A DNA stretch of 64,000 nt from Patescibacteria group bacterium (lineage in GTDB: Bacteria > Patescibacteriota > Patescibacteriia > Magasanikbacterales > GWA2-37-8). Of the stretch, positions 789-63,218 are shown piece after piece (positions within the stretch are counted from its first letter, which is position 1; each line of letters starts with the position of its first letter). The notes under the pieces were generated by a model. The model searched no databases, had not been told where the DNA came from, and saw only the letters and a list, made by a program, of their open reading frames with translations. The stretch is from contig JAKLGL010000001.1 in NCBI GenBank assembly GCA_022710645.1, positions 274,712 to 338,711 of the forward strand. Direction: 5' to 3'. Both the position numbers and the translations under genes were made by a program.

Positions 789-3700
789 TTATTTTACTGA
801 TATACCTCCATTATATTCTTTCCACGCTTTATTTGAAGAATCACAATCATTAAAAGTATTAGAACCAAAAACTATTTCACTATAACATCCAATTCCATTA
901 TATCCTGCTGGATAATTAGTTGTATTATCACATTTTCCACTACACCACCCCCAATTATCTTTCACCTGAACAGCGGGTTTATATGTAATATTGGTATTGG
1001 CGATGTTAAGATAAAATTCATAATAATCAGCGCGACAGCCTTCTCCTCTGTTGTTTCCAAAACCTTCCGGATCATCATCAAGCGCCTGATTTTGAGGTTG
1101 ACATTTACCTTCTACTAAATTATCGGAAGATTCGTTATAAAAGACACAATCCCAATCTCCGTCGCAAGGAATTTGATATTTATAATCATCCGCGTTTGAC
1201 CAATTGGTTCCGCTTCCACCGACACAATAACCAAAATTGGTACATTTTGGTTTGCGGTTGCCCATACTCTCGGCTTCCACTTTTACAAAATCAACGTCAG
1301 AAATATTCTTTTTAACCCAAATACTGCGAAGAGGCATTTGCGCCGGATCGGCCCAAGCGTAAAATCGCAAGATAAGCGGTTGGCCGTAAGCTATTTGGAT
1401 ATCTTTACCCGTAACATTATCTCCAGTCACACTCATTTGATCAAGGACAAAAGAATTGCAAACTTTTTCCGCCTCGCATCCGAATTTATTGGCAGCCGCG
1501 GAATCTTTGCATTTTTGAATTTTAATATCACAATCTTCTTTTGACATTTTTACCGGAGCGGCGATTACCGGCGGACGGATTTTGATACCTAAATCTTTAG
1601 CTGCTTTAGGGGAAGCAAAATCAACTTTTAATCCTGCAGATCCAACCCACCCTTTAACAAACATTTTTCTGAACATGTTGCATATTGGAGAATCGTTCTT
1701 TTTAGAATTATCGCCATCTGGTAAAACATTTTCAAAAGGTATATTCTTTGAACAATCTGCCGCGATTTGATTTAAAGGAATGCGATATTTATAGGTATAT
1801 ATTTCTCCGTTTTCATAAGTACCATAATCCATCAAGTCGTTTTGCTTAGCTTCTTTAGAATCATAGTTAATTAATGCTACACCTCCATTTAAACTACCGC
1901 TATTACCCAATAAACCAAATGGTTGTTGATTGTCAGCATCCCAAAAATTAAAATATTTTCTAAAAGAATTTAAGAATTTCGGGTCTTCACCGTTTGTTAA
2001 ACCATAATACAATGAAGGGACGGCTTCTCTGCGAGCATAAATAGTTCTATATTTATAACTATTTGAATAAGCCGCAGATGAAGGTTGGTTATCATTAGAA
2101 TTATTAAAAAGAAATACCTTGTCCTTAATCAAACGCCAGGTTACAGGCTTTATGGAAAAAACATCTGTGTTGTCTCTAACAATGATTTTATCACTATTAT
2201 CCGCAGAACATGTCCCGTCAGAATAATGAACTATAAATATAAAAGCATTACCTCTTGACCCGTTTTCATCACCACCATCTATAGTGTTACAATTTGTAAT
2301 ATCACCAGAATGTTTTTCGTAAGTACCCCTAACATCTTTTGTTTCAACAGATAAACCGTCCAAAATTCCGTTTTCTGTCCATTTTATTTTCACAGTAAAT
2401 CCATTACTACCCTCTTTATATTTATCTTCTTCACAATTTATATTTCCATTAACACCCCAAATTTGCAGACCCCAATCGTTGCCGGTTAATTTTTGATAAC
2501 ATGTATTTGAAGGCTTAAAATAAGTTGAGGAAACAAAATACCCGCCATCACTATCTTTAAAAGCATCTGGCAAATTGTCATTTTTTGTGTTTAATTCAAA
2601 AAATTCTCCATTATAAAAAGTAAAGCGATTATTATCAAAATTATTTTCTATTCCTTCTTTAACCGAATCTGATACCAATACTTCTATTTTGGTAATTGAT
2701 TTTCTATCTATCTTTTCAAAAACGACATCAGAATCAGAGGAAGGAATACTATAATCTTCATTATCATCTGATGCATAAATATAATATGCTGTAGAATTAG
2801 GTGATAAATTTTTAATTAAAAGCTCCTGTCCGTTAACACCTTCGATCCCGGCATCATCATTATTTCTTTCACAGCCGAATTTTTTACCTTGAATATAATA
2901 AGGGTACATATAATTTCCTTGCCAGGAAATTTTTTGACCATTATCCGAATTTGAACACAATTCAGGAGAAGGGTTTTCACATTTTCCATTTATGTCATTT
3001 CCACAAATTTGCGTTGTACCACCAAAAGAATTAAGTGGTTCCAACTTTTCTCCCTCACCCCTAAAATCACTTCCTTTTACATACCACTCTCTCACAGGAT
3101 CCCCACTAGCATGGCTGATATATGAATTTAATTTTTGCGCATATTTATATGGTTCTATATTTGAAGCAGAACATGCCCAACTTGTATTATTAATACTATT
3201 TTTTACCGGATTATTATAAGCACATACTTCCAGAGGTGTTTTTTCTGTAACTCTCCACCCTGCTGTATCATCATAAACATACAAATCCGTAGCTCCTTCC
3301 ACTGATTCCACCGGCCACCAGGTCAAACAGGTATTATCCGTACCTCCGGCTGTGTAAAACGGATTTCTGACATCTTTTTCTACACAATAACCTTCCCAAC
3401 CAAGCAAAGCATTGATGGATTTCAAAGGAGAACAAATACCGCCACTGTTTTCATCTCCACAAGAATTGACAACTGTGGGATCACACCCTTTTCCTTCTTC
3501 CAATCCTCCCAAACAAACACCTTTGGCATAATCACCTTCAACAGCATTGCTTCCCAAATAAACATTTTGACTTTTATAATTGTATTTTTTATAACTGCAA
3601 TCACAATCTCCTCCAGAACACAGATTAACTTTATCGCTAAATCCTTTTTTAAACTCTCGATTAACTCCCGTAGCAGTACTATCTCGCAAAACCCAAAGAT

Positions 3701-6700
3701 TGAAAGGACTGTCCTGTTCCGGATATCCGCGACAGGATAACCCCGGAGATGCTTTGGGGTCTTCCATAACATCTGTTTTTTCCGTAGCATCCAAATCATA
3801 ACTTGAATAAGGCATTGCCGGGAATACGCATTCTTCTCCAGAGCAATAACCTTTTAAGCCTGGCATTTTGGCGCTTGAACATTCTTTCTTGGATGAAATA
3901 ACATCATTGACATTGCACACCGTAGTTGTAACTTCAGTATGAACAAGTTTATTTTCCGGAAGAATTATAAGTGGAATTCCATTTAAACCTGACACAGACG
4001 GATATTTTATTTCTCTAACTTGTAAATCGTAAATTTGATAAGAATTAAACAGAGAATATCCAGTAAACTCTTCGGCGTTCCAAGCCGTGGACCTGCTTTG
4101 ATAAACTTTTTTGGTAAGCGGAATATCTTTTTCCGAAGTCGAAGTGACTATATCCACACACTGTCCGTCACTGGTCGCACCGGCCTGGGCTTTGGTACAT
4201 AAACCCAAACGATAACAACGACTACTGAGTTGTCCCGTATCCCCGTCTCTATTGGTCATATATTCACTACAATAAGACCAGAGAGAACAAGTTCTATCCA
4301 ACATCACTTTCATGACAATATTGGCGTCATTGGTTGAAGCGTTATTTATCGGATCTACCAGGGCTCCGCCTTTTGCATTTGAAGCCGCGTAAGTTGCAGC
4401 CGTATCCCATGTTTTAGTCGGATTATCGGTTTTATCAAACAAAACACAACCGCTATTTAAACTTACTTTTCCCGAGCAATCTTTTTGCGCGTCGGAAATT
4501 TTACTGTTATTTATCAAATAGTATTCTTTATCCGGATCAGAACAAACATCTTTGGCATCACTAGTGCAATCTTTATCAAATTGACATTTTTTGCCGCTGA
4601 CGGCGCATTTCTTGCTTTGCGATTCTGAATATCTGTCGGTAAACAAAGTACAATCAGATTGATCAGCTGGACAAACACCGGTGTAATTCGCATAATTATC
4701 CGAACCGTAAGACGGTAAATAGCTTCCATTTACTGCCGAATTGTCCGCATAACAAATCGTGCTAGTAGTTCCTTTCATTAACCATTTATAAACGCCAGTA
4801 TCGTCTTTTTTCCATTCACAAATCAAATTGCCGTAAATCTCCGGATCTTTGAAATAATAATTGCTTGAACCGGATTTCCAAGAATCACAACCTTCGGCTT
4901 TATCATTACAAATAGAATTATCAAAATCTGAAGTATTAGGTTTGATTTTCAAATAAACATCTTGATATTTACGACTATCATCGGAAAGTAAAACAGAAGA
5001 ACCCAGAGCCGTACAACCTTTTTCCGCTTCCGCACATGAAACATTTTGATCTTTGAGCACCAGATAAATCGGTGATTCCGATCTTGGCGGAATAACTATG
5101 GTGGCAGTGGTGTAATATTCCGATAAAGCGCTCAATGCTCCGGACGGAGCGACTATTTTTTCTACATAACAACCATTTTCTTCTTTGGCGGCAAAACATT
5201 TCAAAGACACTCCGCCGACAGTCGTAGACAATTCTCCGCTTACGCCCGGTGTGCCAAATTCTGATTTTTTCAACCACAAATTATAGACAATATATTTTTT
5301 ACTGTCCGTACCGGCAAGTTCCCTATTGTTCGTATCGTAAACTTTGGTACACCCCTGTGCTCCATCACGGCAAAGATAACTAAAATTGTGCAAATATACG
5401 GGATTTAAACTTGCAGTGGTTTTGTAAGCGCGGCAACCCAAAGCTTGACCCGGTAAATTGTCTGTCTGGTCGGCATCGCACAAAGACGGCACTGTTAATT
5501 TATCTTTTACCAAATAAACAATATCGGAAACCAATTCAACTTTCACATTATCAACATACAAAATTTGACTTTGAACAGTGTTTGGTTTTAAAACCAATTG
5601 AGCTGTCAATTTATTTTGAGCGTCAGCATTGGCATCTTTTACAGCTTCAAAAACATATTCGTATCTCTTCCAATTATCCGTTAATGTAAAATCGGCAACA
5701 TTATTATTCAATAAATGCCAGAATCGTAAACCCCAAGATCCCGATCCTTTGGCCAAGAAAGAAACACGATAGCTTTTGCCCGGCGTCAAAGGTAGAGCAT
5801 AATATTTTGTCCCACTGGCTCCGCCGGCGTTTACCACTACTTTGAGAGAATGACCGTTATTTATCAAGCTTTCAGTAGAAACAGACAATGAAGTAAAAGA
5901 ATCCGCCGGATTGGCTTTTCCCCAAGTTTGAGTTTGGTTATCAGTGCCAAATACAACACTACCTTCAAAAGTTTGATTCATTAATGTATTGGAATAATTT
6001 CCAGTATTACCTTTATAAGGACGGCAAGAAACTTTTTCTTTGGCGCAAGCAAAACTGCCTCCGGCTGTCGTTTGTATTCCAGAAGGCAAACCGTTATAAA
6101 CACAATAACCAGTATTTACATCATAAAAAACCACCTTGTCTCCCCCGTCGTTTATACTTCCCAAGCAATCGGTACCAGTATCAAATTCAGGTTTAACTGC
6201 CCGATAAGAAGTACATTTGTCGGAAACCGCCACTGTTTTATTCAAGAAAACATAATATTTTTTACCCGTATCGTCTATCAATTCACGACATTGTTCTCCA
6301 TCGTCGGTTCTAAAATTGAAATCTTGAGCGGTTTGACTGCATTTTGAACGTAGCAAATCTCTTTCCGCAGTATCACGATACATTTGTTTCGGAGCGCCGG
6401 AACTTTCTTTTAATAAAACATAACTTATCAATTGATAACCACCGGCATCTCTGCCTTCATAAGTATAGAAATTCTTTTGTCTGTTTTTATCCGGCAAAAT
6501 ACAAGTTCGCAAATCAGTGAAATATTCCGTTTGTTCCAGGTTATTGCTAACCGTGGAAAGATTTACAAACGCGCTACAACCAGATTCTGAAGCACTGCAA
6601 CTCGCTTCTTTTTGCGGAATTATATAAGCCAAATCCGTCCCTTTACCGTATTTTGTCGGCATCTCTTTGTAAGAATTATAACCGACACAAGACGCATCGC

Positions 6701-9050
6701 ACTGATCATTCCAAGCAGTTACCACATTACTACTATTAACCGTGGCCGGAACAAATTTTCCAGTCACACTTTCTCCTGTCAAAAGACCGTCAAAATTAAG
6801 CGTCTGATACAATCCGCATCTTTCTTCTTCCGGCAAACAAACCGGAGAGTAATTTTTACAAGCGTCAGTACTGACTGGTTTTATTTTGTTGAAATCCGCT
6901 AAATTTTGTGGCCACTGCACGCCGTTACTGCGATTGTTATCACTATCATAACAACCTAAATAATCCGGCGCTTTTTTGAAATAAACAACATTTGATTCTG
7001 TCGAAGTATTCAGAGCCAAGGCCGTACAACCGGCATCTTTAGCTTGGCAAGTCTCTGTTTTTTTATTCAAATAAAAACCTTTTCCTTTGCCGTAATCCCA
7101 AGTTCCGCTGGCAAAATTACTGTTGGGATAAGTTTTGAAATTACTATAAAAAATACAACCAACATTATCACTGTCACACATCTCGCTATTGAGCGTTCTA
7201 GTTAAATAAGAAGAAGTTTTTCCTTTACTATTGGTTAAAACTTTACAAGTCGCATATTGACTATCGCAATAGTCAGCATCAAAACGCCAAACGCTTTTTT
7301 CTTTCAAACAATAACCGTAAGCCAAACATTTTCCGTTTTTGTCATAATCCACACAGGTTTGCAAATCAGCGCATTCTTCTTGACGAACCGGAGTATCTTT
7401 ATCTACAAGCTGAGTTCCGTAAACCAGAGATTTGCAACGAGCCGGCGGAATTTTCAAAACCCAATTCGGATTTATCAAGTGATAATAAGGAGAACGCACA
7501 TTATCAAAATTTTCCAAAATTTCTTTCAATGTCGGCGGACCGGAAACAAAAACATTTACCCCATTTGCATAAGCGGTGTTGGTAGCATTCACCTCGGTCA
7601 AAGAAGCTATTTCAAAACCAAGAGGTAGCACTCCGGCTTTGCGAAGAAGTTTGATATTTTTGTAACAAAAAGCTCCGGCATAACAATCTTTTTCACTATG
7701 TTGACGCTCAGTGGCTTCACCGGGGCCTATCAATTTCCAATTTTCATCCAAATAACCTTTTTCAATAGCGCCTCGAATAGTTAAAGGCTGACCTAATTCC
7801 GCCGATCTTATAGCTTGAGCAAACTGTTCATCAATCACGCAATTTTCAACTCCAGGATTATCCGGACAAGAAGAAAATTTTGATAAAAGATCATATTTGC
7901 TAATTTCTCTGGATTTGGCCACCAATAACAATTCGGCAAAAAGCGAAGCTGCTTCTTGTTTATAGGAAGATTCCCCGCCGGCATAATAATTTCCTTCAGC
8001 ATCGTATTTACTTTCCACGCAAGTATCTATGCTCAAACCGCCGATCTTGAGGTAACTCGGAACACATTTAACTTTTCCTAAACCAAAAGGAAACATGCCT
8101 TTGGTAAGAAAATTATCCATAGCCGTACCAGCGAAAGTATCTATAAAAGTAGAAGCCGCGTTCATCAAAACTTGTATAGAGCCTTTTTGTAAAGCCGCAG
8201 CCATATATTCTTGAGTGCTTTGTTTTTTACCCTCAACTTGTGCTCCTTTGCCGGCTTTTACTAACATATCTTTATTAACTTCAGCTGGAGTAATAATGTC
8301 GCCGGAAATAGCCGTGGTCAAAGATTTTACTCCCCCACCTTCGGTTCTTTCAGCCTTAGCAGCAGCCTCAGCATCGAGCGCATAACTATCCATTTTGCTT
8401 TTGGCTTCTATACCTATACCTAAATCAGTGTCGGAAATTTCCAAAGAAGTATTAAATCTCTTACTAAAACCTTCGCCGTTTTCCCCCCAATATTTACTTT
8501 TGATATTTTCCGCACTATAAGTATCTTTGAGCTGTTGAAAAGAACAGGTAGGTTTTGGTTCGGAGTAAGCCAAGTGCAAACCCATTTTCAAAGCCAAATC
8601 AAGTTTCGGATCAGGTAAACTACAAAGATTAAAACCGACACCTTTGGCAAAACTGTCCAAAGCCGTACCTAAAGCATCACCAGCCACTCCGGCCCAATAA
8701 TCACCCATGCTCTTGGTATTGAAAAGCGGAGATTGTCCCCAATTACCGGAAGCCAAACTCACAGCCATATCATATGCGACTTTATTTAAAAGAAAATCTA
8801 AACCTTTCATCGCACCAACCATTACCGAATCAATAAAATTATCTTCCACCTTATTCCAATTTTCTTCTAATTGAGCTTTTGTTTCATTCCATGTGTTCCA
8901 CATGTTTTGAGTATTGTCATAAGTTGGCAAGCCCTGAGCCATGGCCGGTGAGGCAAAAACAAAAGAAAAAGAAAAAATAACCAGAAGAAGGACTGGAAAT
9001 AGTTTAGGTTTAAGACGGGGAAAAAGGGACATAAAATATATAATTTTCAA
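789..9050 (-). CDS. Giant (2,753 aa) secreted Cys-rich extracellular protein; function unknown (candidate surface or adhesin protein)
   Basis: Single uninterrupted ORF. N-terminal signal peptide MKIIYFMSLFPRLKPKLFPVLLLVIFSFSFVFASPAMA. Composition is N/S/T/G/D/Y/C-rich with many paired Cys throughout. No catalytic motif was recognised. It is the last gene of a minus-strand operon. Confidence 0.6.
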   Translation of the reverse strand: MKIIYFMSLFPRLKPKLFPVLLLVIFSFSFVFASPAMAQGLPTYDNTQNMWNTWNETKAQLEENWNKVEDNFIDSVMVGAMKGLDFLLNKVAYDMAVSLASGNWGQSPLFNTKSMGDYWAGVAGDALGTALDSFAKGVGFNLCSLPDPKLDLALKMGLHLAYSEPKPTCSFQQLKDTYSAENIKSKYWGENGEGFSKRFNTSLEISDTDLGIGIEAKSKMDSYALDAEAAAKAERTEGGGVKSLTTAISGDIITPAEVNKDMLVKAGKGAQVEGKKQSTQEYMAAALQKGSIQVLMNAASTFIDTFAGTAMDNFLTKGMFPFGLGKVKCVPSYLKIGGLSIDTCVESKYDAEGNYYAGGESSYKQEAASLFAELLLVAKSREISKYDLLSKFSSCPDNPGVENCVIDEQFAQAIRSAELGQPLTIRGAIEKGYLDENWKLIGPGEATERQHSEKDCYAGAFCYKNIKLLRKAGVLPLGFEIASLTEVNATNTAYANGVNVFVSGPPTLKEILENFDNVRSPYYHLINPNWVLKIPPARCKSLVYGTQLVDKDTPVRQEECADLQTCVDYDKNGKCLAYGYCLKEKSVWRFDADYCDSQYATCKVLTNSKGKTSSYLTRTLNSEMCDSDNVGCIFYSNFKTYPNSNFASGTWDYGKGKGFYLNKKTETCQAKDAGCTALALNTSTESNVVYFKKAPDYLGCYDSDNNRSNGVQWPQNLADFNKIKPVSTDACKNYSPVCLPEEERCGLYQTLNFDGLLTGESVTGKFVPATVNSSNVVTAWNDQCDASCVGYNSYKEMPTKYGKGTDLAYIIPQKEASCSASESGCSAFVNLSTVSNNLEQTEYFTDLRTCILPDKNRQKNFYTYEGRDAGGYQLISYVLLKESSGAPKQMYRDTAERDLLRSKCSQTAQDFNFRTDDGEQCRELIDDTGKKYYVFLNKTVAVSDKCTSYRAVKPEFDTGTDCLGSINDGGDKVVFYDVNTGYCVYNGLPSGIQTTAGGSFACAKEKVSCRPYKGNTGNYSNTLMNQTFEGSVVFGTDNQTQTWGKANPADSFTSLSVSTESLINNGHSLKVVVNAGGASGTKYYALPLTPGKSYRVSFLAKGSGSWGLRFWHLLNNNVADFTLTDNWKRYEYVFEAVKDANADAQNKLTAQLVLKPNTVQSQILYVDNVKVELVSDIVYLVKDKLTVPSLCDADQTDNLPGQALGCRAYKTTASLNPVYLHNFSYLCRDGAQGCTKVYDTNNRELAGTDSKKYIVYNLWLKKSEFGTPGVSGELSTTVGGVSLKCFAAKEENGCYVEKIVAPSGALSALSEYYTTATIVIPPRSESPIYLVLKDQNVSCAEAEKGCTALGSSVLLSDDSRKYQDVYLKIKPNTSDFDNSICNDKAEGCDSWKSGSSNYYFKDPEIYGNLICEWKKDDTGVYKWLMKGTTSTICYADNSAVNGSYLPSYGSDNYANYTGVCPADQSDCTLFTDRYSESQSKKCAVSGKKCQFDKDCTSDAKDVCSDPDKEYYLINNSKISDAQKDCSGKVSLNSGCVLFDKTDNPTKTWDTAATYAASNAKGGALVDPINNASTNDANIVMKVMLDRTCSLWSYCSEYMTNRDGDTGQLSSRCYRLGLCTKAQAGATSDGQCVDIVTSTSEKDIPLTKKVYQSRSTAWNAEEFTGYSLFNSYQIYDLQVREIKYPSVSGLNGIPLIILPENKLVHTEVTTTVCNVNDVISSKKECSSAKMPGLKGYCSGEECVFPAMPYSSYDLDATEKTDVMEDPKASPGLSCRGYPEQDSPFNLWVLRDSTATGVNREFKKGFSDKVNLCSGGDCDCSYKKYNYKSQNVYLGSNAVEGDYAKGVCLGGLEEGKGCDPTVVNSCGDENSGGICSPLKSINALLGWEGYCVEKDVRNPFYTAGGTDNTCLTWWPVESVEGATDLYVYDDTAGWRVTEKTPLEVCAYNNPVKNSINNTSWACSASNIEPYKYAQKLNSYISHASGDPVREWYVKGSDFRGEGEKLEPLNSFGGTTQICGNDINGKCENPSPELCSNSDNGQKISWQGNYMYPYYIQGKKFGCERNNDDAGIEGVNGQELLIKNLSPNSTAYYIYASDDNEDYSIPSSDSDVVFEKIDRKSITKIEVLVSDSVKEGIENNFDNNRFTFYNGEFFELNTKNDNLPDAFKDSDGGYFVSSTYFKPSNTCYQKLTGNDWGLQIWGVNGNINCEEDKYKEGSNGFTVKIKWTENGILDGLSVETKDVRGTYEKHSGDITNCNTIDGGDENGSRGNAFIFIVHYSDGTCSADNSDKIIVRDNTDVFSIKPVTWRLIKDKVFLFNNSNDNQPSSAAYSNSYKYRTIYARREAVPSLYYGLTNGEDPKFLNSFRKYFNFWDADNQQPFGLLGNSGSLNGGVALINYDSKEAKQNDLMDYGTYENGEIYTYKYRIPLNQIAADCSKNIPFENVLPDGDNSKKNDSPICNMFRKMFVKGWVGSAGLKVDFASPKAAKDLGIKIRPPVIAAPVKMSKEDCDIKIQKCKDSAAANKFGCEAEKVCNSFVLDQMSVTGDNVTGKDIQIAYGQPLILRFYAWADPAQMPLRSIWVKKNISDVDFVKVEAESMGNRKPKCTNFGYCVGGSGTNWSNADDYKYQIPCDGDWDCVFYNESSDNLVEGKCQPQNQALDDDPEGFGNNRGEGCRADYYEFYLNIANTNITYKPAVQVKDNWGWCSGKCDNTTNYPAGYNGIGCYSEIVFGSNTFNDCDSSNKAWKEYNGGISVK

Positions 9051-9080
9051 TTTTTAATTTTCATTAAATTTTCAATCATC
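9040..9080. repeat. Left inverted-repeat arm (family B, ATTTTCAAT units) flanking a four-helix-bundle gene
   Basis: Sequence 'aattttcaatttttaattttcattaaattttcaatcatcaatttacaatttc'. Its reverse complement matches 9455-9510 and the gene-less copy at 22095-22200. Confidence 0.6.
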
Positions 9081-9483
9081 AATTTACAATTTCTTTATCA
9101 TTGCCTTTTCTGCTAGTCATGCCTATTTTTTGAAATATCATAGTTAGCTCCTGTGCTTCTGACCAGTATATCCTGAGTTCTTTTTTTAAATCTTCGTTAC
9201 AAACTGCTAACATTCTTAACCAGTGTTTTGTTTCTTGCGCTTCTTTTTTGCAAATAAATATTTTGTTTATAAAATCTTTTTTTGATGCCGCCCCATTGGC
9301 TTCCATATAATTAGCTCCCACACTAGTAGCTGATCGAATAATTTGACCAATCAAAGATTTGTTATATTCATTAATTCTTATTCTTTGACACAATTTAATA
9401 ATGTCTTCACCAAACTTTGCAGTCCTCTCTTCCAAATCATAACCAGATACCATATTTTGAAAATTAAAATATTGAAAATTCAA
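9079..9483 (-). CDS. Four-helix-bundle protein (PF05635/TIGR02436-like, '23S rRNA intervening-sequence protein' family)
   Basis: Motif ...SATSVGANYMEANGAASKKDFINKIFICKKEAQETKHWL... is typical of the family. The track ORF starts at a TTG; the probable true start is the ATG at 9453 (MVSGYDLE...). The gene is flanked by inverted repeats. Confidence 0.6.
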   Translation of the reverse strand: MNFQYFNFQNMVSGYDLEERTAKFGEDIIKLCQRIRINEYNKSLIGQIIRSATSVGANYMEANGAASKKDFINKIFICKKEAQETKHWLRMLAVCNEDLKKELRIYWSEAQELTMIFQKIGMTSRKGNDKEIVN

Positions 9484-9510
9484 TGAAAATTGTAAATTGT
9501 AAATTTTATT
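9455..9510. repeat. Right inverted-repeat arm (family B, ATTGAAAAT units)
   Basis: Sequence 'aaattaaaatattgaaaattcaatgaaaattgtaaattgtaaatttt'. Its reverse complement resembles 9040-9080 and 22105-22140. Confidence 0.6.
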
Positions 9511-10413
9511 TTACACTCCCCATTCAAATTTTCCCGTCGCTTCATTGTAATAATAAAGCTCTTTGATTTTTTCATCATTGTATTTGGCGGCAGTTTTTTC
9601 CAAAACTTCAAAAACACCTTCGCTATCTATAATTTCACTGGCTTCATTTTTAGGGAAAAATTGAATGATTTTTGATTTTATTTCCGAATATGACGGAACC
9701 GGCAAAGATTTACCGCCCGCCTTTTCTTCTTTTTGTGAAACAACATTATCTCCGATTTTCAAATTTCCGGTGCGAGCATATTCATCGGCAATTCTAAAAA
9801 TATCTTTTTTTTCAGAACCGAACATAAAATCTGTAAATTTATAGACATTTTCGACAAAAACCCCTTTATCATTCAAAAAATATTCGTTAAAATATTCATC
9901 TTTTGTTTGCAAATCTTCAAAAAGAACGTTTAAATATTTTTTAAATTCTTCTTTATTTTGAATTTGTCGAAATTTCACGATTACTTCCGAAAAAGCTATA
10001 CTTTTCTCTCCGATTTTCCCGATAATCGCTCCGGAATTTTTCATCGATTCTTTACAGGCGTTAAAATCTCCCAAAACTTCATCTTGGCTTTTCAAATAGT
10101 AATTTGAAGCTACATACAATAAAAATCTATCCAAAACATCGTATCCAAGCAAAAAAGACATGGCTATTTCTTTTTTAAAAAAAATGTCCTTGAGAAAATT
10201 TATAGGTAAATTCAAAAATCTTCTGAAACTTATCTCTGTAAACCAGCGCAAATATGATTTTCTCATTTCATAATCTTCTTCAAAATCGGTCGATGAAAAA
10301 ACATTTATCAAATCGCCAAAAAAAACATCCGCCTGTTCATTGGTAAACAAATCTATTTCAGCTTGCATTTTTTCCAATTGGCTATCATCCAAATTTAGCT
10401 GTGTTTTGATCAT
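9511..10413 (-). CDS. Hypothetical cytoplasmic protein (300 aa), middle gene of the giant-protein operon
   Basis: Intact ORF lying 8 nt downstream of the 1,054-aa gene. No TM segment or signal peptide. No recognisable family. Confidence 0.45.
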   Translation of the reverse strand: MIKTQLNLDDSQLEKMQAEIDLFTNEQADVFFGDLINVFSSTDFEEDYEMRKSYLRWFTEISFRRFLNLPINFLKDIFFKKEIAMSFLLGYDVLDRFLLYVASNYYLKSQDEVLGDFNACKESMKNSGAIIGKIGEKSIAFSEVIVKFRQIQNKEEFKKYLNVLFEDLQTKDEYFNEYFLNDKGVFVENVYKFTDFMFGSEKKDIFRIADEYARTGNLKIGDNVVSQKEEKAGGKSLPVPSYSEIKSKIIQFFPKNEASEIIDSEGVFEVLEKTAAKYNDEKIKELYYYNEATGKFEWGV

Positions 10414-10421
10414 ATGTCTTT

Positions 10422-13400
10422 TTATTTTTTATTTTTTCCTTGTTGTTTAGCGCCTTGTTCTACTCCTTTTTTAACAGCATCAGCTATTTTCTCGCTGGAT
10501 TTTGACAAAGCTTGGGCGACTTCTTTGGGAATTTTGGATAAAACCGCCTGAGCCGATCTCGAATTGTTTTCTATCATTTTCTCAAAAGTATTTACAAAAT
10601 CCTTGCCTAAATCCAAGTTTTTGAAACTTCCTGTCTTGGAATCAAGTAAATTCAAAAGTTCCGTGGAAAGACGGCCGTGGATACGTCCTTGGAAAGTGAA
10701 GTTTCTCAATGTTTGTATGATCATATTTTGAGCATGTTCATCCAAACCGACCATTTCTCCACTACTGTTAATTGAAGCTATACCGGACAAGCTCTCTAGG
10801 TCTCCGACTTTATTGGAAAGCGGGCCGGTAAAATATTTTTGACCTTCTAAAATTTTATTTTTATTTGTCTGTAATTTATATTCGGCTAAGCCATTCTTTC
10901 CCAAAGAAGTACCGTCGTAAATGGAAACCGTGTGCGAAAAACCGGAGGGCGCCGCAGCTCTGGCGGAAATATCGTTATTACGCAAAACTGTTTGCCAACT
11001 CTCGGCACCCATTTTTTCTTGACCAATTTTAAACATTTTTTTAGTTTCGTCCAACAACATTCTATCTCTTGTTTTTCCATATTCTTCGGCAAAAGCTTGA
11101 TCATAATCTTCATCTTTTAGAGGACCATACTTTTCTTCAATGTCTTTATCTGTTTCTGCTGATACCTTTTTGCTGTCAAGAATATCTTGCAAATCTATTT
11201 TTTCGCCAGCCATCCTTGCAGTTTCAACCAATTGATGAGCAAACGCATCTCCAGAATCGAGTTTGTCATATTTTATACCATAAGCTTCGTTAATGGATTT
11301 TTGTACCGCAGCAATACCGTCGGAACCGAAATTTTTAGCAGCCACGGATTCCATAGCAGCTTGATTGGATAATAAAGCTTTTCTTTCTCTTTCATAACTT
11401 TCTTTAGGCATAGCGGCTTTATTTTTATCCAATTCTATGACTTTATTGGCATTTTGAGCTGACATAGCTACCAATTCAGCATACTGTAAATTACCAAAAC
11501 TTTTCTCGCGTCCGGACTGTAACTCCGCCCAATAAGCAGCTTCGTTTGTCTTTGGTATAAATCTTTTTTCAGCTTGTTCATCTTTGGCTTTGGCAATTTC
11601 CAATTTTTTCTCATCTTCAACAATCATTTTGAGGGTTTCCGCACTGGCCTGTTGTCTATACACTTCATTTTGTTTTTCTCTGAATTTTTTATCTTGTTTT
11701 AATAATTCTTCTATTTTTTTGAGTTCTCTTATAGATTCTCTGGAACCGACTTCTTCTTTGAGTTGTTGTGTTTCAAGTTTAGTTTTAACAGTTTCTTCTT
11801 TCATGGTTCTGAAACGACTTTCTGATCTCAATTTTTCCTCAGCCGCTATTTTTTCTTGTTGTGCGGCAGTAAATTTTTTATAATCTTCAGATTCGCTTTT
11901 TAATCTTTCCAATTCTTTTTGTCTTTCCACATAACCGGCTTCACCCATTTTCAATTTAGCCATTTGATCCTTTATACGATCTTCTCTGGCTTGTTTCAAA
12001 CCTCCGGCTTGCGTTCCTTCCAATTCTTTTGCGAGAGTTTCTTCCATAATACCGGGCGCTTCAGTTTCAACCCAAGCTTGAGCATTTTCTTTAACACCAA
12101 TACCTCCAGCTTCTTTTCGTCTTTTTAATAATTCAGCATATGCTTTTACTCTTTCGTTTTGATTTTTTTGATTCCAGTTAGCTTTGGTTCCGGATAAATC
12201 ATCCAAAACACTATCCCATGCTTCGTTTTCTCCTTTGAGCTGTTTATTTAGTCTTTCATTCTTAACGGAACGATTATACATTTCGCCTACAAAACCACCT
12301 TCTCTGAGACTTCTGGCTGTAAATCTTTTTAAACCTGTTTTTGCGCCTTCATATCGATTCATCCAAGCATAACCGCCGATTCCCGGTGCATTCATAGCAA
12401 TACCCTTGGTAATACCAAGAGCAGCTCCTTTTGCTTTTTCCCCCGCCCAACCGGCCAATCTAACACCGGTAGCAACAGTAGCAATTTTCTTGGCCGTACT
12501 CATTGCCGAGCTTAAAGCGCTGGCACCAGTAACTCCAAGTTCCTGAGTTTTTTTAACACCGGTAATAAGCAAAGCAATAGCTATGGCAAAAGAAGCCATT
12601 TTACCCCATTCCATAGCCTGGGAAATACCGGTAGCCGTGCTACCAAATAACGCATTAGTTTCGTAACGTTTTGCCTGGTCAGTCGGCAAGACTTCATTAA
12701 AAGAATCTCCTCCACCAACTATGGCAAATGACAACCAGAAAAAGAAAGCTAAGATAGGACCAGCCATTACGTGATTGTTAAATTCTTTCCACCACTCAGA
12801 AGCGTATTTTTGGGTGTTTGGTAAAACACTACTCATAAACGCTATTGGCGAAAGAACTATCAAAGTCCACAAGGCTACAACACGAGCGATAACCACCAAT
12901 AAATAAGCTCCTATAACAAAAAAACTGATAACGGAAAAAAATACAGCAGCTACTCCGGTCACAAAAACATCCGTAGCGCTGGCGGCTTTTTGAGCCAATT
13001 CCTGATCCGGACTTAAATTGTAAATAGTATCTAAATTCAAACCTTTTATCACATTCCCTCCAGCAGTAGCGGCAAAGCCATTTACAAAAGTCATCATAAA
13101 AACCTGAGAAACATCGATAATCACACCGCAAATAACTCTGCTAAAATTCACCAACACGGCGGCGAAAACCAATTTTACTAAAAGTTTTTTCCATTCATAT
13201 TGTTCAATACCGAGAACCGTACCAAAAGCTATCACCAAAAGAATCAAAACAAAAAACATGTTCACTACATCGCGAACCAAAACCCAGCCCAGAATAACAG
13301 CTTGGGAGTTGATAAAATTATTATATGAAGCTATGACAATGAAAAGTTGCGACGCCCAAACCGTCAATTTGATAAAAAACTGGGCAATAAGCAACAACAT

Positions 13401-13586
13401 CCAAGTAATAATCGAGGCTATGCCCATAGAAATTTCTTCCGTAGTCGGCCAACCCCAAGCCAAAGCATACCCGGCAGTCAAAATCCCGCTAAAAACAAAT
13501 ACAAAAAATAACACAACCAGAAGTTTGTTTTTCTTGTTTTTTCCAAATCTGAATTTCTCCTTAATTTTCCCAAAAAAAGACGACAT
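10422..13586 (-). CDS. Polytopic membrane protein with a TrbL/VirB6-like N-terminal multi-TM domain (~330 aa) and a ~700-aa charged coiled-coil C-terminal extension
   Basis: At least 6 hydrophobic helices within residues 20-330, with a layout and Trp/Pro pattern reminiscent of TrbL/VirB6 (PF04610). The remainder is E/K/Q/A-rich predicted coiled coil. It is the first gene of the operon, with promoter at 13667-13695. Family assignment is by eye only. Confidence 0.4.
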   Translation of the reverse strand: MSSFFGKIKEKFRFGKNKKNKLLVVLFFVFVFSGILTAGYALAWGWPTTEEISMGIASIITWMLLLIAQFFIKLTVWASQLFIVIASYNNFINSQAVILGWVLVRDVVNMFFVLILLVIAFGTVLGIEQYEWKKLLVKLVFAAVLVNFSRVICGVIIDVSQVFMMTFVNGFAATAGGNVIKGLNLDTIYNLSPDQELAQKAASATDVFVTGVAAVFFSVISFFVIGAYLLVVIARVVALWTLIVLSPIAFMSSVLPNTQKYASEWWKEFNNHVMAGPILAFFFWLSFAIVGGGDSFNEVLPTDQAKRYETNALFGSTATGISQAMEWGKMASFAIAIALLITGVKKTQELGVTGASALSSAMSTAKKIATVATGVRLAGWAGEKAKGAALGITKGIAMNAPGIGGYAWMNRYEGAKTGLKRFTARSLREGGFVGEMYNRSVKNERLNKQLKGENEAWDSVLDDLSGTKANWNQKNQNERVKAYAELLKRRKEAGGIGVKENAQAWVETEAPGIMEETLAKELEGTQAGGLKQAREDRIKDQMAKLKMGEAGYVERQKELERLKSESEDYKKFTAAQQEKIAAEEKLRSESRFRTMKEETVKTKLETQQLKEEVGSRESIRELKKIEELLKQDKKFREKQNEVYRQQASAETLKMIVEDEKKLEIAKAKDEQAEKRFIPKTNEAAYWAELQSGREKSFGNLQYAELVAMSAQNANKVIELDKNKAAMPKESYERERKALLSNQAAMESVAAKNFGSDGIAAVQKSINEAYGIKYDKLDSGDAFAHQLVETARMAGEKIDLQDILDSKKVSAETDKDIEEKYGPLKDEDYDQAFAEEYGKTRDRMLLDETKKMFKIGQEKMGAESWQTVLRNNDISARAAAPSGFSHTVSIYDGTSLGKNGLAEYKLQTNKNKILEGQKYFTGPLSNKVGDLESLSGIASINSSGEMVGLDEHAQNMIIQTLRNFTFQGRIHGRLSTELLNLLDSKTGSFKNLDLGKDFVNTFEKMIENNSRSAQAVLSKIPKEVAQALSKSSEKIADAVKKGVEQGAKQQGKNKK

Positions 13587-18466: not shown

Positions 18467-18507
18467 GAGTCTATAAAGTCCTTAATGTCTGTAATGTCTA
18501 TAAAGTC
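18467..18507. repeat. Left inverted-repeat arm (family A, GACTTTAYRGAC units) flanking the second four-helix-bundle gene
   Basis: Sequence 'gagtctataaagtccttaatgtctgtaatgtctataaagtc'. Its terminal 15-mer is the reverse complement of GGACTTTATAGACTC at 18926-18940. Confidence 0.6.
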
Positions 18508-18533
18508 AAAAAATCCGCATATTGCGGATTTTT

Positions 18534-18884
18534 TTAGTCTTTTAATGCTTTTATTAATCCTGAAAGCAACCTCGAAATTTCTATCGATAACTGATAACAA
18601 TTATCGTAATCACACTGCTGGATAATCTTTAAACTGAAAGCTAAATCAAGCATTGACCTCACTTCACCACAAGAACCCTTGGCAATAAACAGAAATTTTT
18701 TAAACTCCTTATCCCCTCTTCTTTCAAAACCTTCAGCAATATTATTCATTATAGAAACGCTTGCTCGTTGAATTTGGTCTTTAAACGAATAATCTCGTGA
18801 TGGTTCAAAAATCTTAAATATTATTATTGTTATTTGTTTGGCTTTTTGCCAAGCAATAATATCTTCAAACTTTTCGATTTTCAT
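18534..18884 (-). CDS. Four-helix-bundle protein (PF05635/TIGR02436 family)
   Basis: Motif ...ASVSIMNNIAEGFERRGDKEFKKFLFIAKGSCGEVRSML... is canonical for the family. Confidence 0.7.
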   Translation of the reverse strand: MKIEKFEDIIAWQKAKQITIIIFKIFEPSRDYSFKDQIQRASVSIMNNIAEGFERRGDKEFKKFLFIAKGSCGEVRSMLDLAFSLKIIQQCDYDNCYQLSIEISRLLSGLIKALKD

Positions 18885-18945
18885 AAATTTAACTTTACGG
18901 ACTTTAAAGACTTTACGGACTTTATAGACTCACACTAGACTTCTT
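18885..18945. repeat. Right inverted-repeat arm (family A)
   Basis: Sequence 'aactttacggactttaaagactttacggactttatagactc'. Confidence 0.6.
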
Positions 18946-20529: not shown

Positions 20530-22113
20530 TTAAATCAGGCTTTTCCCTGTCATTTCTTTGGGTTTTTTCAAATTAAATAATTTTAAAATTGTCGGCGCAA
20601 CATCGGCTAATCTTCCTTTTTTTAACTGTTTTTTCTTTTTATAAAAATCATTGTTCATCAATATCAGAGGTACTGGGTTGGTAGAATGTTCGGTATCGAC
20701 TTCACCTGTTTTGAGATTTATCATCGCTTCCACATTTCCATGGTCAGCTGTCACCAACACGGTACAATCTTTTTTCAAAGCCGTTTTTATCAATCTATCA
20801 ACTTCCGTATCCACGGTTTTGACGGCCATAACTCCGGCAATCAAATCTCCGGTATGACCTACCATGTCCGGGTTTGGATAATTGACGCAAATAAAATCAT
20901 ATTCTTTTTTTTCCAAATTTTTTATCAAAATATCAGTCATTTGTTTTGAACTCATTTGCGGACACGCGACATAACTGTCCACAACTTTTGATTCCACTTT
21001 TATCCAACGATCATCACAAAAATGTTTGGCGTAACCTCCGTTAAAAAAGTAAGTTACATGGGCGAATTTTTCGGTTTCGGATATATAAAGTTGTTTCATC
21101 GGACAAAGTACTTGGGTCAAACTATTAACAACATCGCGAGAAGGAAAAGCCGTCAATACACCGGGGAGATCGGGTCCAAAATCGGTCATGGCTACAAAAC
21201 GGGTGTTTTTGGGAACGCGAGAACGACGAAAAGAATCGGGATTAACTTTTTCAAAATCAGGTTGTACAAAAGCTTTGGTTAATTGCCTGGCTCTGTCAGA
21301 TCTTAAGTTAAAGAAAAAAATCGCATCATTATCGTTTATCTTGGCAATAGCTTTATTTTTTTCAACAATCACTGTCGGTACTATAAATTCATCTGTCTCT
21401 CCCGAATTGTAAGCCAGAGTCAAAGCATCTTCCGCCGATTCAGCGGTTCGGCAACTTTTACATTCAACCAAAGCATCGTAGGCCTTTTTTATCCTTTCCC
21501 AATTTTTACCCCTATCCATACCGTAAAACCTTCCCAAAACAGTAGCGATTTTTTCATTACCATGAAATTTTTCTTTTAATAATTTCAAATGTTTTGGAGC
21601 GTCATGTTGCCCGGAATCACGACCGTCGGTAAAAAGATGCAGATAAACTTTTTGAATTTTTTCTTGATAAAAGTAATCCAATAACGCGTATAAATGCTCC
21701 GGACAAGAATGGGCGCTGTTATGGTTTGATAATAATCCTATCAAATGAACGGCGGTATTATATTTTTTTATATGATGAACAGCTTGATCAAAAGCCGGAT
21801 TTTTGAAAAAAGTCCCATCTTTGATAGCATCGGAAATATATACCGCATCTTGTTTTACCACACGTCCCGCTCCCAAATTCATATGCCCGGCTTCACTATT
21901 ACCTTCTTCATCTTTAAAAAGACCTACTGCTTCTCCACTAGCTTCAAGTTTAGTATTGGGAAAATCTTTGAGCCAACGAAAATAATTCGGCGCATTCTCC
22001 GGAGTTATCGGATTGCCTTTATTTTTTGGACTAGCTATTCCCCAGCCATCCATAATGACGAGCATGACTGGGTTCTTTTTATTAGTCGGCATACAGAAAA
22101 AACAAATTTTCAA
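20530..22113 (-). CDS. gpmI: Second, divergent iPGM paralog arranged in tandem
   Basis: Motifs MDGWG, GNSEAGH, TADHGNVEA. Length is 527 aa. Only 22 nt separate it from the downstream paralog. The track start is a TTG; the probable ATG is at 22092 (MPTNKKNPVMLVIMDGWG). Confidence 0.8.
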   Translation of the reverse strand: MKICFFCMPTNKKNPVMLVIMDGWGIASPKNKGNPITPENAPNYFRWLKDFPNTKLEASGEAVGLFKDEEGNSEAGHMNLGAGRVVKQDAVYISDAIKDGTFFKNPAFDQAVHHIKKYNTAVHLIGLLSNHNSAHSCPEHLYALLDYFYQEKIQKVYLHLFTDGRDSGQHDAPKHLKLLKEKFHGNEKIATVLGRFYGMDRGKNWERIKKAYDALVECKSCRTAESAEDALTLAYNSGETDEFIVPTVIVEKNKAIAKINDNDAIFFFNLRSDRARQLTKAFVQPDFEKVNPDSFRRSRVPKNTRFVAMTDFGPDLPGVLTAFPSRDVVNSLTQVLCPMKQLYISETEKFAHVTYFFNGGYAKHFCDDRWIKVESKVVDSYVACPQMSSKQMTDILIKNLEKKEYDFICVNYPNPDMVGHTGDLIAGVMAVKTVDTEVDRLIKTALKKDCTVLVTADHGNVEAMINLKTGEVDTEHSTNPVPLILMNNDFYKKKKQLKKGRLADVAPTILKLFNLKKPKEMTGKSLI

Positions 22114-22200
22114 TTTACAATTTTCATTGAATTTTCAATGACGTAATTTACAAAATAGCCATTGATAATTGAAAATTGATAATTGATTGAAAATTAAAAA
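22095..22200. repeat. Gene-less copy of the family-B inverted-repeat element (MITE-like) between gpmI and eno
   Basis: 'attttcaatttacaattttcattgaattttcaatga' ... 'cattgataattgaaaattgataattgattgaaaatt'. The first part nearly matches the reverse complement of 9487-9520. Confidence 0.55.
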
Positions 22201-53547: not shown

Positions 53548-53686
53548 TATTTCAATAAATTGTAAGGAACATAAACTAACTGCACATTATAGCACATTTT
53601 AGCCTTTTTGTCAAGATTTAAATGTGGCTAATTTAAGCCATTTTTCTAAACAAAAAACCGCCGTTTTTGGCGATTTTACTATTTTT

Positions 53687-53767: not shown

Positions 53768-53852
53768 AACCGGTCTTATTATTCAATCCGCCTTCGCCCA
53801 AAAAGGGCTACGGACGGACAAGTATCCAATATCCAATATTTAATATTTTTTA

Positions 53853-63094: not shown

Positions 63095-63097
63095 GCC

Positions 63098-63218
63098 GAA
63101 AGTCCATAAAGTCCGTAAAGTCAAAAAGAAAATTAAAAAACTTTCCCATTTGGGAAAGTTTTTTAATACTTTTTAAAAAGACTTTACAGACTTTAAGGAC
63201 TTTACGACTTTACAGACT
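63098..63218. repeat. Gene-less family-A inverted-repeat element enclosing the rplK terminator hairpin
   Basis: AGTCCATAAAGTCCGTAAAGTC ... [ACTTTCCCATTTGGGAAAGT-TTTTT] ... GACTTTACAGACTTTAAGGACTTTACGACTTTACAGACT. Confidence 0.55.

What the first reader, a model, noticed from the sequence alone, without database searches (positions are those of the whole stretch)
9040..9520. Four-helix-bundle (PF05635) gene carried by an inverted-repeat element inserted inside the giant-protein operon
Seen: the 134-aa four-helix-bundle gene sits between the 300-aa gene and the giant gene. It is bracketed by imperfect inverted repeats built from ATTTTCAAT / ATTGAAAAT units (9040-9080 and 9455-9510). A near-identical repeat pair with no gene between its arms occurs at 22095-22200, between gpmI and eno. 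Established knowledge: this protein family was first described inside 23S rRNA intervening sequences, which are bounded by inverted repeats that form RNase III-cleaved stems. Inference: this is an IVS-like or MITE-like mobile cassette that can exist with or without the four-helix-bundle cargo. Here its stem-loop would lie inside a polycistronic mRNA, possibly causing processing or uncoupling of the giant gene from the upstream genes.
Basis: partly seen in the sequence, partly recalled or inferred. Interest (0 to 1): 0.7.

Follow-up and report, generated by a model that had tools for sequence, protein, structure and literature searches.

The report
Hairpin-bounded four-helix-bundle gene cassette
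A small gene of the "23S rRNA intervening-sequence protein" family sits between two operon genes of a Candidate Phyla Radiation (CPR) bacterium, enclosed by inverted arrays of 7-base units; the same design recurs in about 120 relatives examined across CPR bacteria, with and without the gene, so it is a widespread, apparently mobile cassette that has not, as far as I could find, been described outside ribosomal RNA.

Summary
A 124-aa PF05635/TIGR02436 gene (9453..9079, minus strand) lies between the 300-aa gene and the 2747-aa secreted giant gene. It is bracketed by 42-nt arms (9035-9076 / 9471-9512, 86% complementary) built of AATTTTC-type heptads. A gene-less hairpin at 22096-22218 shares 29 identical bases with one arm.

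- A second, unrelated PF05635 gene in the window (18884..18534) has its own 44-nt arms of a different unit (AGTCYNTAA), and its own gene-less copy at 63095-63216.
- Among relatives fetched from genomes and metagenomes, 93% of 76 family-1 genes and 69% of 67 family-2 genes have significant flanking inverted arrays. Only 0.8% of control ORFs do.
- The ends are sharp and conserved across CPR phyla.
- The upstream neighbour is co-directional in 123 of 126 cases.
- dN/dS is 0.06-0.09 for the closest pairs.
- A close relative (giant protein 93% identical) has an empty 27-nt site. Other relatives carry a different hairpin or a different cassette there.

Best reading: an IVS-like, foldback/MITE-like promoter-less cassette outside rRNA. 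RNase III processing and the way it moves are untested. The mismatch pattern gives no sign of RNA-level selection. This is a new variant of a known kind.

The parts
9454..9512 (-). 5' arm of cassette E1. It is an array of AATTTNC-type heptads plus a short leader, and fills the whole spacer from the 300-aa gene's stop (9513-9511) to the ATG at 9453.
   Evidence: family consensus
9079..9453 (-). Four-helix-bundle gene (124 aa plus stop), PF05635/TIGR02436, with an S23p/Avd fold.
9033..9078 (-). 3' arm of cassette E1 (GNAAATT-type heptads). It ends 1-3 nt before the giant gene's ATG (9032).
9511..10413 (-). Upstream host gene (300 aa, no Pfam match), co-directional with the cassette.
789..9032 (-). 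Downstream host gene: a giant (2747 aa) protein with a signal-peptide-like N-terminus.
22096..22218 (.). Gene-less family-1 hairpin between eno and iPGM. Core arms are 22105-22139 / 22168-22202. It aligns to the E1 5' arm plus leader up to -1 of the ATG, and to the last codons plus 3' arm.
18888..18931 (-). 5' arm of the second cassette E2: 9-nt units AGTCYNTAA (AAAGT core).
18534..18884 (-). Second PF05635 gene (116 aa), only 29% identical to E1 over 49 aa.
18467..18510 (-). 3' arm of cassette E2. An intrinsic-terminator-like hairpin (18508-18534) lies between the stop codon and this arm.
63095..63216 (.). Gene-less family-2 hairpin (AAAGTCC... / ...GACTTTA arms). It encloses a bidirectional terminator-like hairpin (about 63137-63165) and lies between convergent genes.

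Best explanation
Window 9033-9512 is one copy of a large family of roughly 0.45-0.5 kb promoter-less gene cassettes of CPR (Patescibacteria) bacteria. The host is a Candidatus Magasanikbacteria.

Design. Each cassette is one four-helix-bundle gene (PF05635; the S23p/Avd fold) enclosed by two terminal arrays of four to six short units in inverted orientation. The unit is specific to the protein subfamily: AATTTNC / GNAAATT for the E1 family, and an AAAGT core / ACTTT for the E2 family.

What is shown.
- The cassette sits in a spacer that is only 27 nt long in a close relative.
- It has the same orientation as the operon, with no room for a promoter of its own, so it must be transcribed by read-through from the 300-aa gene.
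- The protein is under strong purifying selection.
- The ends are sharp and conserved across phyla at unrelated insertion sites.
- Gene-less internal-deletion derivatives exist.
- Orthologous sites differ between relatives.

What is inferred (about 0.75 overall). It is a mobile or selfish element of the same design as the ORF-bearing intervening sequences of 23S rRNA, and its gene-less copies behave like MITEs.

What is inferred more weakly.
- In the polycistronic RNA the arms pair into a duplex of about 45 bp. This duplex closes off the gene as a loop, hides the giant gene's start region (3 nt away), and is a plausible RNase III substrate that would cut the 300-aa and giant-gene messages apart (about 0.4-0.5).
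- The repeated units are binding sites for the cognate pentameric protein, by analogy with Avd, which binds an RNA stem-loop in DGR RNA. The arms would then act as the element's recognised ends (about 0.3-0.35).

The enzyme that moves the DNA is unknown. The cassette encodes no transposase or integrase domain.
For: Anatomy in the window.

Family-wide inverted arrays. For family 1, 76 genes from 80 GTDB genome loci give a median Smith-Waterman score of 39 and z of 9.0, and 93% score at least 30. Control ORFs in the same loci have a median of 14, and 0.8% score at least 30 (Mann-Whitney p=8e-30). For family 2, 67 genes from metagenome loci give 69% scoring at least 30 and 73% with z>5.

Conserved sharp ends. 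The distance from the 5' boundary to the ATG is most often 40-41 nt. Sub-lineages change both arms together, for example AATTTTG/CAAAATT and AATTTAA/TTAAATT.

Orientation. The upstream neighbour is co-directional in 68/71 and 55/55 cases, against a baseline of 0.82/0.80 for adjacent gene pairs. The gap from the upstream stop to the ATG is 47-49 nt, which is about the arm length.

Context. No rRNA is found in the window or in 20 of the loci, so these copies are not in rRNA.

Purifying selection. The closest pairs have dN/dS of 0.06-0.09, all pairs are below 0.4, and median pN is 0.22 against pS of 0.76-0.85. The protein core is nearly invariant.

Fold. Mean pLDDT is 90.9. The best structural matches are 2RLD and 2GSC (pentameric S23-family proteins), followed by the DGR Avd entries 8UBE and 4DWL.

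Gain and loss at the same spacer.
- L086: giant protein 93% identical, 27-nt empty site.
- L089: a different gene-less hairpin.
- L092: a PF05635 gene only 55% identical, with different and nested arms.
- The E2 site is empty in L086.

Gene-less derivatives that keep the ATG and first codons: L038, L027, L082.

Background. rRNA IVSs are bounded by inverted repeats, are cut by RNase III, and occur with an S23p ORF (PMC4990558). Avd is a pentamer that binds an RNA stem-loop (bioRxiv 10.1101/2023.10.23.563531).
Against: - No target-site duplication was seen at the family-1 boundaries, and no recombinase is encoded, so transposition in the classical sense is unproven.
- Mismatches in the arms show no G:U over A:C bias. 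Cross-element arm pairs score almost as well as own pairs. So RNA pairing as such is not visibly under selection.
- E2 and the gene-less family-2 hairpin carry a terminator-like hairpin between the arms. This would often stop transcription before the 3' arm. It is rare in the wider family by a crude test.
- The empty site in L086 already contains about 20 nt that align with the outer 3' arm. 'Insertion into an arm-like target' cannot therefore be told apart from 'deletion leaving one arm'.
- No RNA data, RNase III gene or binding data were available (one search found no RNase III motif in the window, which says nothing about the rest of the genome).
- The fetched loci were chosen by protein similarity, so the ratio of gene-bearing to gene-less copies is biased.
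Confidence: 0.75

Rival explanations
1. This is a host regulatory module rather than a mobile element. Each four-helix-bundle protein would be a sequence-specific RNA- or DNA-binding regulator. The unit arrays would be its operators. Arrays around its own gene would give autoregulation, and gene-less hairpins or single arrays next to host genes (eno/iPGM, uvrB, the giant gene) would form its regulon.
For: - Units are conserved as sequence, not only as pairing.
- Each protein subfamily has its own unit.
- Single arrays fill the spacer directly upstream of the uvrB ATG and lie downstream of its stop.
- The protein is under strong purifying selection.
- The Avd homologue binds a structured RNA (10.1101/2023.10.23.563531).
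Against: - The orthologous spacer is empty, or is occupied by different hairpins or cassettes, in close relatives.
- The same ends occur next to unrelated genes in many phyla.
- Gene-less copies are decayed cassettes that still hold the ATG and first codons.
- No defence or regulator family matches.
Confidence: 0.12
2. This is a host-selected RNA processing or stability hairpin, and the gene is an incidental passenger. The long stem would exist to separate or stabilise the messages of the 300-aa and giant genes, as REP, ERIC or Correia hairpins do. The ORF in the loop would have no role.
For: - The stem forms in the MFE and centroid folds.
- The cassette lies exactly between stop and start codons inside operons.
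- The same spacer carries some hairpin in three of four related lineages.
Against: - There is no G:U over A:C asymmetry.
- The ORF is under strong purifying selection, with an almost invariant core.
- The 98% sense orientation is not needed for a symmetric hairpin.
- A close relative does without any hairpin at this site.
Confidence: 0.08
3. This is an orphan accessory gene (Avd) of a diversity-generating retroelement that diversifies the neighbouring giant protein.
For: The Avd-like fold. PF05635 is the Pfam family most often found next to DGR reverse transcriptases (PMC10053308). DGRs are common in CPR bacteria (own knowledge).
Against: - No reverse-transcriptase Pfam appears in the gene tables within about 10 kb.
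- No YxDD motif is found in the window.
- The same cassettes sit beside unrelated genes.
- A template/variable repeat pair was not looked for.
Confidence: 0.03
4. This is a chance inverted low-complexity A+T-rich sequence in an A+T-rich genome.
For: The total count of one-mismatch AATTTTCAAT matches in the window is not above the shuffled expectation.
Against: - The matches are clustered at two loci only.
- These are the top-ranked inverted repeats of the window.
- There is a 29-nt exact identity between the two loci.
- The feature is family-wide, at 93% against 0.8% in controls.
Confidence: 0.01

Closest known systems
ORF-bearing intervening sequences (IVS) of 23S rRNA (Leptospira, Coxiella, Xanthomonas; S23p ORF)
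   Same: - A PF05635/S23p-type gene of about 115-125 aa inside an element of about 430-480 nt.
- Termini that are inverted repeats forming a long stem (Coxiella: 428 nt with a 28-bp stem; PMC4990558).
- Transcription as part of a host RNA.
- Sporadic distribution, and existence of ORF-less forms.
   Different: - It is not in rRNA. It lies between protein-coding genes of an operon.
- The arms are arrays of 4-6 short tandem units whose sequence is conserved within a protein subfamily across phyla.
- The ORF is clearly under purifying selection here, whereas S23p appears not to be made in Coxiella.
- RNase III excision is not shown.
MITEs and co-transcribed hairpin repeats of bacteria (Correia/NEMIS, ERIC, REP/BIME)
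   Same: The gene-less copies (22096-22218, 63095-63216 and those) are hairpins of about 80-120 nt in intergenic spacers. They share their ends with a longer coding element and look like internal-deletion derivatives.
   Different: No transposase partner is known and no target-site duplication was seen. The 'autonomous' partner encodes only a four-helix-bundle protein.
Foldback elements of Drosophila (own knowledge)
   Same: Long inverted arms that are themselves made of short tandem repeats. Copies occur with or without a coding middle segment.
   Different: They are eukaryotic and far larger, and the coding copies carry transposase-related genes. This is an analogy of form only.
Avd, the accessory protein of diversity-generating retroelements
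   Same: The same fold (TM 0.69/0.78 to 4DWL). Avd is a basic pentamer that binds a structured RNA element.
   Different: No reverse transcriptase is nearby. Sequence identity is about 12%.
Integron gene cassettes
   Same: Promoter-less single-gene units, co-directional with and dependent on an upstream promoter, and associated with an imperfect palindrome.
   Different: The palindrome is split around the gene instead of being one attC at its 3' end. No integrase, attI or cassette array is present.

Membership tests
23S rRNA intervening sequence (IVS) with S23p ORF | Located inside a 23S rRNA gene (helix 9, 25 or 45) | tested here: not met
   Rfam finds no rRNA in the window or in 20 related loci. 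The neighbours are protein-coding genes.
23S rRNA intervening sequence (IVS) with S23p ORF | Bounded by inverted repeats that can form a long stem | tested here: met
   Arms are 42 nt and 86% complementary. The stem forms in the MFE and centroid folds. The feature holds family-wide.
23S rRNA intervening sequence (IVS) with S23p ORF | Encodes a PF05635 / S23p four-helix-bundle protein | tested here: met
   Pfam 4.8e-15 and TIGR02436 2.4e-21. Structural matches to 2RLD and 2GSC.
23S rRNA intervening sequence (IVS) with S23p ORF | Excised from the precursor RNA by RNase III | not testable with these tools
   No RNA data are available. No RNase III motif occurs within the 64 kb, which is uninformative for the rest of the genome.
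MITE / terminal-inverted-repeat transposon | Conserved terminal inverted repeats at many unrelated insertion sites | tested here: met
   The same ends appear in more than 50 loci from many CPR phyla. Gene-less copies are listed.
MITE / terminal-inverted-repeat transposon | Target-site duplication flanking the element | tested here: inconclusive
   No recurrent direct repeat is seen at the boundaries of 54 elements. The boundaries are uncertain by 1-2 nt because AATT is palindromic.
MITE / terminal-inverted-repeat transposon | A cognate transposase encoded by the full-length partner | tested here: not met
   The only ORF is the PF05635 protein. It matches no other Pfam or NCBIfam family and no transposase-like fold.
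MITE / terminal-inverted-repeat transposon | Presence/absence polymorphism at orthologous sites | tested here: met
   The site is empty in L086, whose giant protein is 93% identical. L089 and L092 carry different occupants.
DGR accessory protein Avd | Adjacent DGR reverse transcriptase and a template/variable repeat pair | tested here: not met
   No RT Pfam appears in the gene tables within about 10 kb, and no YxDD motif is in the window. A TR/VR pair was not searched for.
DGR accessory protein Avd | Avd-type four-helix-bundle fold | tested here: met
   Foldseek matches 8UBE_D and 4DWL_D with probability 1.0 and TM up to 0.69/0.78.
Integron gene cassette | A single attC palindrome 3' of the ORF, plus IntI and attI | tested here: not met
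   The arms lie on both sides of the ORF. No integrase is in the gene tables.

The most novel reading that the evidence does not exclude
The PF05635 pentamer may itself be the end-recognition factor of a transposase-less class of mobile cassettes. Each protein subfamily would read its own 7-9-nt unit, arrayed four to six times in inverted orientation at both ends. It would bring the ends together and recruit host nucleases or repair enzymes, or act on the RNA, to move or maintain the element. The gene-less hairpins and single arrays would be non-autonomous copies and footprints that depend on the protein in trans. This would give the 30-year-old 'IVS ORF' and the free-standing relatives of Avd a function. 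It would also explain why such elements land at helix tips of rRNA.
Probability: 0.2. Interest if true: 0.85.

Novelty: new variant of a known kind. Interest (0 to 1): 0.62.

Why it matters
PF05635 ('S23 ribosomal protein', 'four helix bundle protein') is a very large family. Each of the two searches here hit the 8000-candidate ceiling. It has no known function apart from its distant relative Avd. The rRNA intervening sequences where it was first found have been suspected, but never shown, to be mobile.

This work shows three things about its members in CPR bacteria. They are systematically packaged as hairpin-bounded, promoter-less cassettes inside ordinary operons. Their terminal unit arrays are specific to the protein subfamily. 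They have gene-less derivatives and show gain and loss between close relatives.

That turns the old question into a simple experiment: does each protein bind its own array, and is the stem cut? It also matters for annotating and assembling CPR genomes. In loci L003, L017, L036 and L051 the fetched contig ends at or within about 100 nt of such a cassette. Finally, it matters for reading operon structure, because the stem lies 3 nt from the start of the next gene.

Tried and rejected
- RNA.duplexfold energies of the flanks did not separate cassettes from control ORFs, because loose duplexes and the higher G+C of coding flanks blur the signal. I replaced this with a gapped local alignment of the upstream flank against the reverse complement of the downstream flank.
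- The first dN/dS script had an indexing error for pairs with N-terminal gaps. I corrected it, and only one search is used.
- I asked whether protein identity follows arm type. G-type to G-type pairs average 0.69 and G-type to C-type pairs 0.66, too small a difference to count as co-evolution.
- I asked whether cassettes preferentially sit inside older hairpins. Outer arms occur in only 3 of 115 cases, so the nested arms of L092 are an exception and not a rule.
- A crude search for terminators between the stop codon and the 3' arm found 0/44 and 1/69. The window's E2 is therefore unusual in this respect. The same detector also missed obvious hairpins after the 3' arm, so it is not reliable.
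- Rfam gave no match. PADLOC gave no match.
- PDB by sequence gave only two uncharacterised pentamers.
- Promoter-like matches inside the arms are weak, at 9 of 12 positions, in A+T-rich sequence. I did not use them.
- Motif searches for RNase III, reverse transcriptase and GIY-YIG in the window found nothing.
- Six literature searches found nothing on hairpin-bounded PF05635 genes outside rRNA. Ralph and McClelland 1993 could not be read.

Full report
**What is at the coordinates**

The genes around the finding are on the minus strand. In order they are a 1054-aa gene (13586..10422), a 300-aa gene (10413..9511), a small ORF, and a giant gene. The small ORF is listed as 134 aa from a TTG. Its in-frame ATG at 9453 gives 124 aa, and the identical database protein has that length. 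That protein is named 'four helix bundle protein [Candidatus Magasanikbacteria bacterium]'. It matches PF05635 (E=4.8e-15) and TIGR02436 (E=2.4e-21) and nothing else.

The giant gene most likely starts at ATG 9032 with a signal-peptide-like N-terminus (called as 2747 aa). The window is part of a 527-kb metagenome contig.

**The repeat arms are real**

The arms lie at 9035-9076 and 9471-9512. They are 42 nt long, 86% complementary, and made of AATTTTC/AATTTAC/AATTTTT heptads. One-mismatch matches to AATTTTCAAT are not more frequent in the window than chance, but they are clustered at exactly two loci. In a scan of all 64 kb for inverted repeats within 700 nt, ranks 1 and 2 are the brackets of the two PF05635 genes, and rank 4 is the gene-less hairpin.

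Folding the minus-strand RNA 9025-9520 closes the long-range stem in both the MFE and the centroid structure (z=-2.46).

The gene-less hairpin between eno and iPGM has arms at 22105-22139 and 22168-22202. It shares a 29-nt exact run with the cassette's 5' arm. It aligns with that arm and leader up to the base before the ATG, and then with the last codons plus the 3' arm. It therefore looks like a cassette whose ORF has been deleted.

**A second cassette, and a second gene-less copy, in the same window**

A 116-aa PF05635 gene lies at 18884..18534, downstream of a second iPGM paralogue. It is bracketed by 44-nt arms (18467-18510 / 18888-18931, 84% complementary) of quite different sequence, made of 9-nt units AGTCYNTAA. 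Its RNA closes the long stem with z=-7.4. The two proteins are barely alignable, at 29% identity over 49 residues.

At 63095-63216 there is a gene-less hairpin with the same second kind of unit. It folds at -52.4 kcal/mol with z=-11.4, and it encloses a terminator-like hairpin. So this window holds two arm families, each with one gene-bearing and one gene-less copy.

**The architecture is a property of the protein family**

Family 1: using an alignment of relatives of the first protein (A1), I fetched 80 loci from one-genome-per-species bacterial and archaeal assemblies. They come from many CPR phyla. For each gene I aligned the 120 nt upstream of its ATG against the reverse complement of the 120 nt downstream of its stop codon.
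- For the 76 testable genes the median score is 39 (z=9.0), and 93% score at least 30.
- For 123 control ORFs in the same loci the median is 14, and 0.8% score at least 30 (p=8e-30).

Family 2: relatives of the second protein (A2) were fetched from metagenomes. Of 67 testable genes, 69% score at least 30 and 73% have z>5. Even low scorers visibly carry AAAGT / ACTTT units.

Family-1 elements have sharp, conserved ends:
- 5' end: [host] AATTTtc AATTTtc AATTTtc AATTTtc AATnAATTTnnA ATG, most often 40-41 nt from the boundary to the ATG.
- 3' end: ...AAATTnAnTGA AAATTga AAATTnn AAATTgA AAATT [host].

Sub-lineages that use AATTTTG or AATTTAA in the 5' arm use CAAAATT or TTAAATT in the 3' arm. None of 20 loci tested, nor the window, contains rRNA.

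**Position and orientation**

The upstream neighbour is co-directional in 68 of 71 cases (family 1) and 55 of 55 cases (family 2). The baseline for adjacent gene pairs in the same loci is 0.82 and 0.80. The distance from the upstream stop codon to the ATG is 47-49 nt, essentially the length of the arm. The next gene starts 34-57 nt after the stop codon. The cassettes thus sit inside or at the end of operons, with no room for a promoter of their own.

**The protein is functional**

The core is almost invariant across phyla. For the closest pairs dN/dS is 0.06-0.09, and every pair is below 0.4. The predicted structure is a confident four-helix bundle (pLDDT 90.9). Its best structural matches are the pentameric S23-family proteins 2RLD and 2GSC, followed by the DGR accessory protein Avd (8UBE, 4DWL). 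No defence-system model matches.

**Gain and loss**

I found homologues of the 300-aa gene in sister genomes. They show four different states of the same spacer.
- L086-L088: the giant protein's first 400 residues are 93% identical to the window's. The spacer is 27 nt, with no gene and no hairpin.
- L089-L091: the spacer is 97 nt and holds a different gene-less hairpin.
- L092-L094: the spacer holds a PF05635 gene only 55% identical to the window's. That is lower than the 60-70% typical for family-1 genes of other phyla. It has different inner arms (CCAATGA units) nested within outer arms of a third kind (AATATTG units).
- The window itself: cassette E1.

The site of the second cassette is likewise empty in L086.

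The 27-nt empty spacer aligns with the outer part of the window's 3' arm. It could be a one-arm footprint of a lost cassette, or an arm-like target. I cannot tell which.

About 20 gene-less hairpins occur in the 0.84 Mb examined. Several keep the ATG and first codons of the lost ORF, for example ATG TCT CAA TTT (MSQF) in L038.

**How it probably works**

Shown: this is a promoter-less, sense-oriented, hairpin-bounded single-gene unit. It has conserved ends, gene-less derivatives, and presence/absence differences between close relatives.

Inferred: it is a selfish or mobile cassette of the same design as the ORF-bearing 23S rRNA intervening sequences. Those are bounded by inverted repeats and cut out of the precursor by RNase III (Coxiella: 428 nt, 28-bp stem; PMC4990558). 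In the operon transcript, the stem of about 45 bp would enclose the gene and cover the region just upstream of the giant gene's ATG (3 nt away). It would also be a plausible RNase III substrate.

Two results caution against treating the RNA stem as the selected feature.
- Mismatched positions show no excess of G:U over A:C (63 against 66, and 36 against 36).
- Arms from different elements pair almost as well as arms of the same element (39 against 35, and 39 against 31).

The unit sequence and its orientation are conserved, not merely the pairing. That suggests a factor reads the units. The encoded pentamer is the obvious candidate, because Avd binds a stem-loop of its DGR RNA (10.1101/2023.10.23.563531). 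This remains untested.

No target-site duplication was seen, and no recombinase is encoded, so the way the DNA moves is unknown.

**Comparison with what is known, and novelty**

The element meets the IVS criteria of size, inverted termini and S23p-type ORF. It fails the defining one, location in 23S rRNA. It resembles a MITE and its parent element in ends, copy number and polymorphism, but it has no transposase and no visible target duplication. It is not a DGR: no reverse transcriptase lies within about 10 kb.

Six literature searches found nothing on PF05635 cassettes outside rRNA. The library is incomplete, and the 1993 founding paper could not be read.

I rate it a new variant of a known kind. 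Interest is moderate to high, because it makes an old question directly testable.

Noticed in passing
window 55890-55933 (minus strand): A single array of family-2-type units (GTTATAAAGTTTGTAAAGTTATAAAGTTCATAAAGTTT) fills the whole 44-nt spacer between the stop of a 364-aa gene (55934) and an ATG at 55889. The product from that ATG begins MKFKLVSKYKPAGDQPEA, which looks like UvrB (recalled from memory, not tested). No inverted partner is present. It may be a one-arm footprint of a lost cassette or a stand-alone binding array.
   Followed up: partly
window 53825-53850 (minus strand): Just after the stop codon of the same (putative uvrB) gene lies a short array of a third unit type, AATATTAAATATTGGATATTGGATA. 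It is the same kind of unit as the outer arms of the nested cassette in L092 (6893-6922). No inverted partner occurs within 53300-53900.
   Followed up: partly
L092 6893-7462: Nested inverted repeats. Outer arms of AATATTG units (29 nt, 93% complementary) enclose inner arms of CCAATGA units (47 nt, 74%), and these in turn enclose the PF05635 gene. Such nesting is rare elsewhere (3 of 115).
   Followed up: partly
window 18508-18534 and 63137-63165: Both family-2 elements of the window (with and without the gene) carry a strong bidirectional terminator-like hairpin inside the arms. Transcription would therefore often stop before the 3' arm. A crude test found this in none of 44 family-2 relatives.
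   Followed up: partly
window 18930-20507 and 20530-22113 (minus strand): Two tandem cofactor-independent phosphoglycerate mutase (iPGM) genes, only 42% identical to each other, lie directly downstream of enolase. The gene-less hairpin lies before the first one and the second cassette lies after the second one.
   Followed up: partly
window 9511-10413 versus 789-9032; L086: Divergence between the window and L086 is very uneven. The 300-aa protein is 65% identical, while the first 400 residues of the adjacent giant protein are 93% identical. The boundary between the two regimes is the cassette site.
   Followed up: no
L003 (8196 bp), L017, L036, L051: In these four loci the fetched contig ends at or within about 100 nt of a cassette. 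For example, L003 stops 37 nt after the 300-aa gene, where the window has the 5' arm. This is as expected if the arms are multi-copy repeats or polymorphic sites that break assemblies.
   Followed up: no
window 53740-53775 (minus strand): The sequence GTCATCCTGAACGTAGTGAAGGATCTG downstream of the putative uvrB gene resembles, from memory, a short repeat seen next to small nuclease genes in other bacteria. I did not examine it.
   Followed up: no
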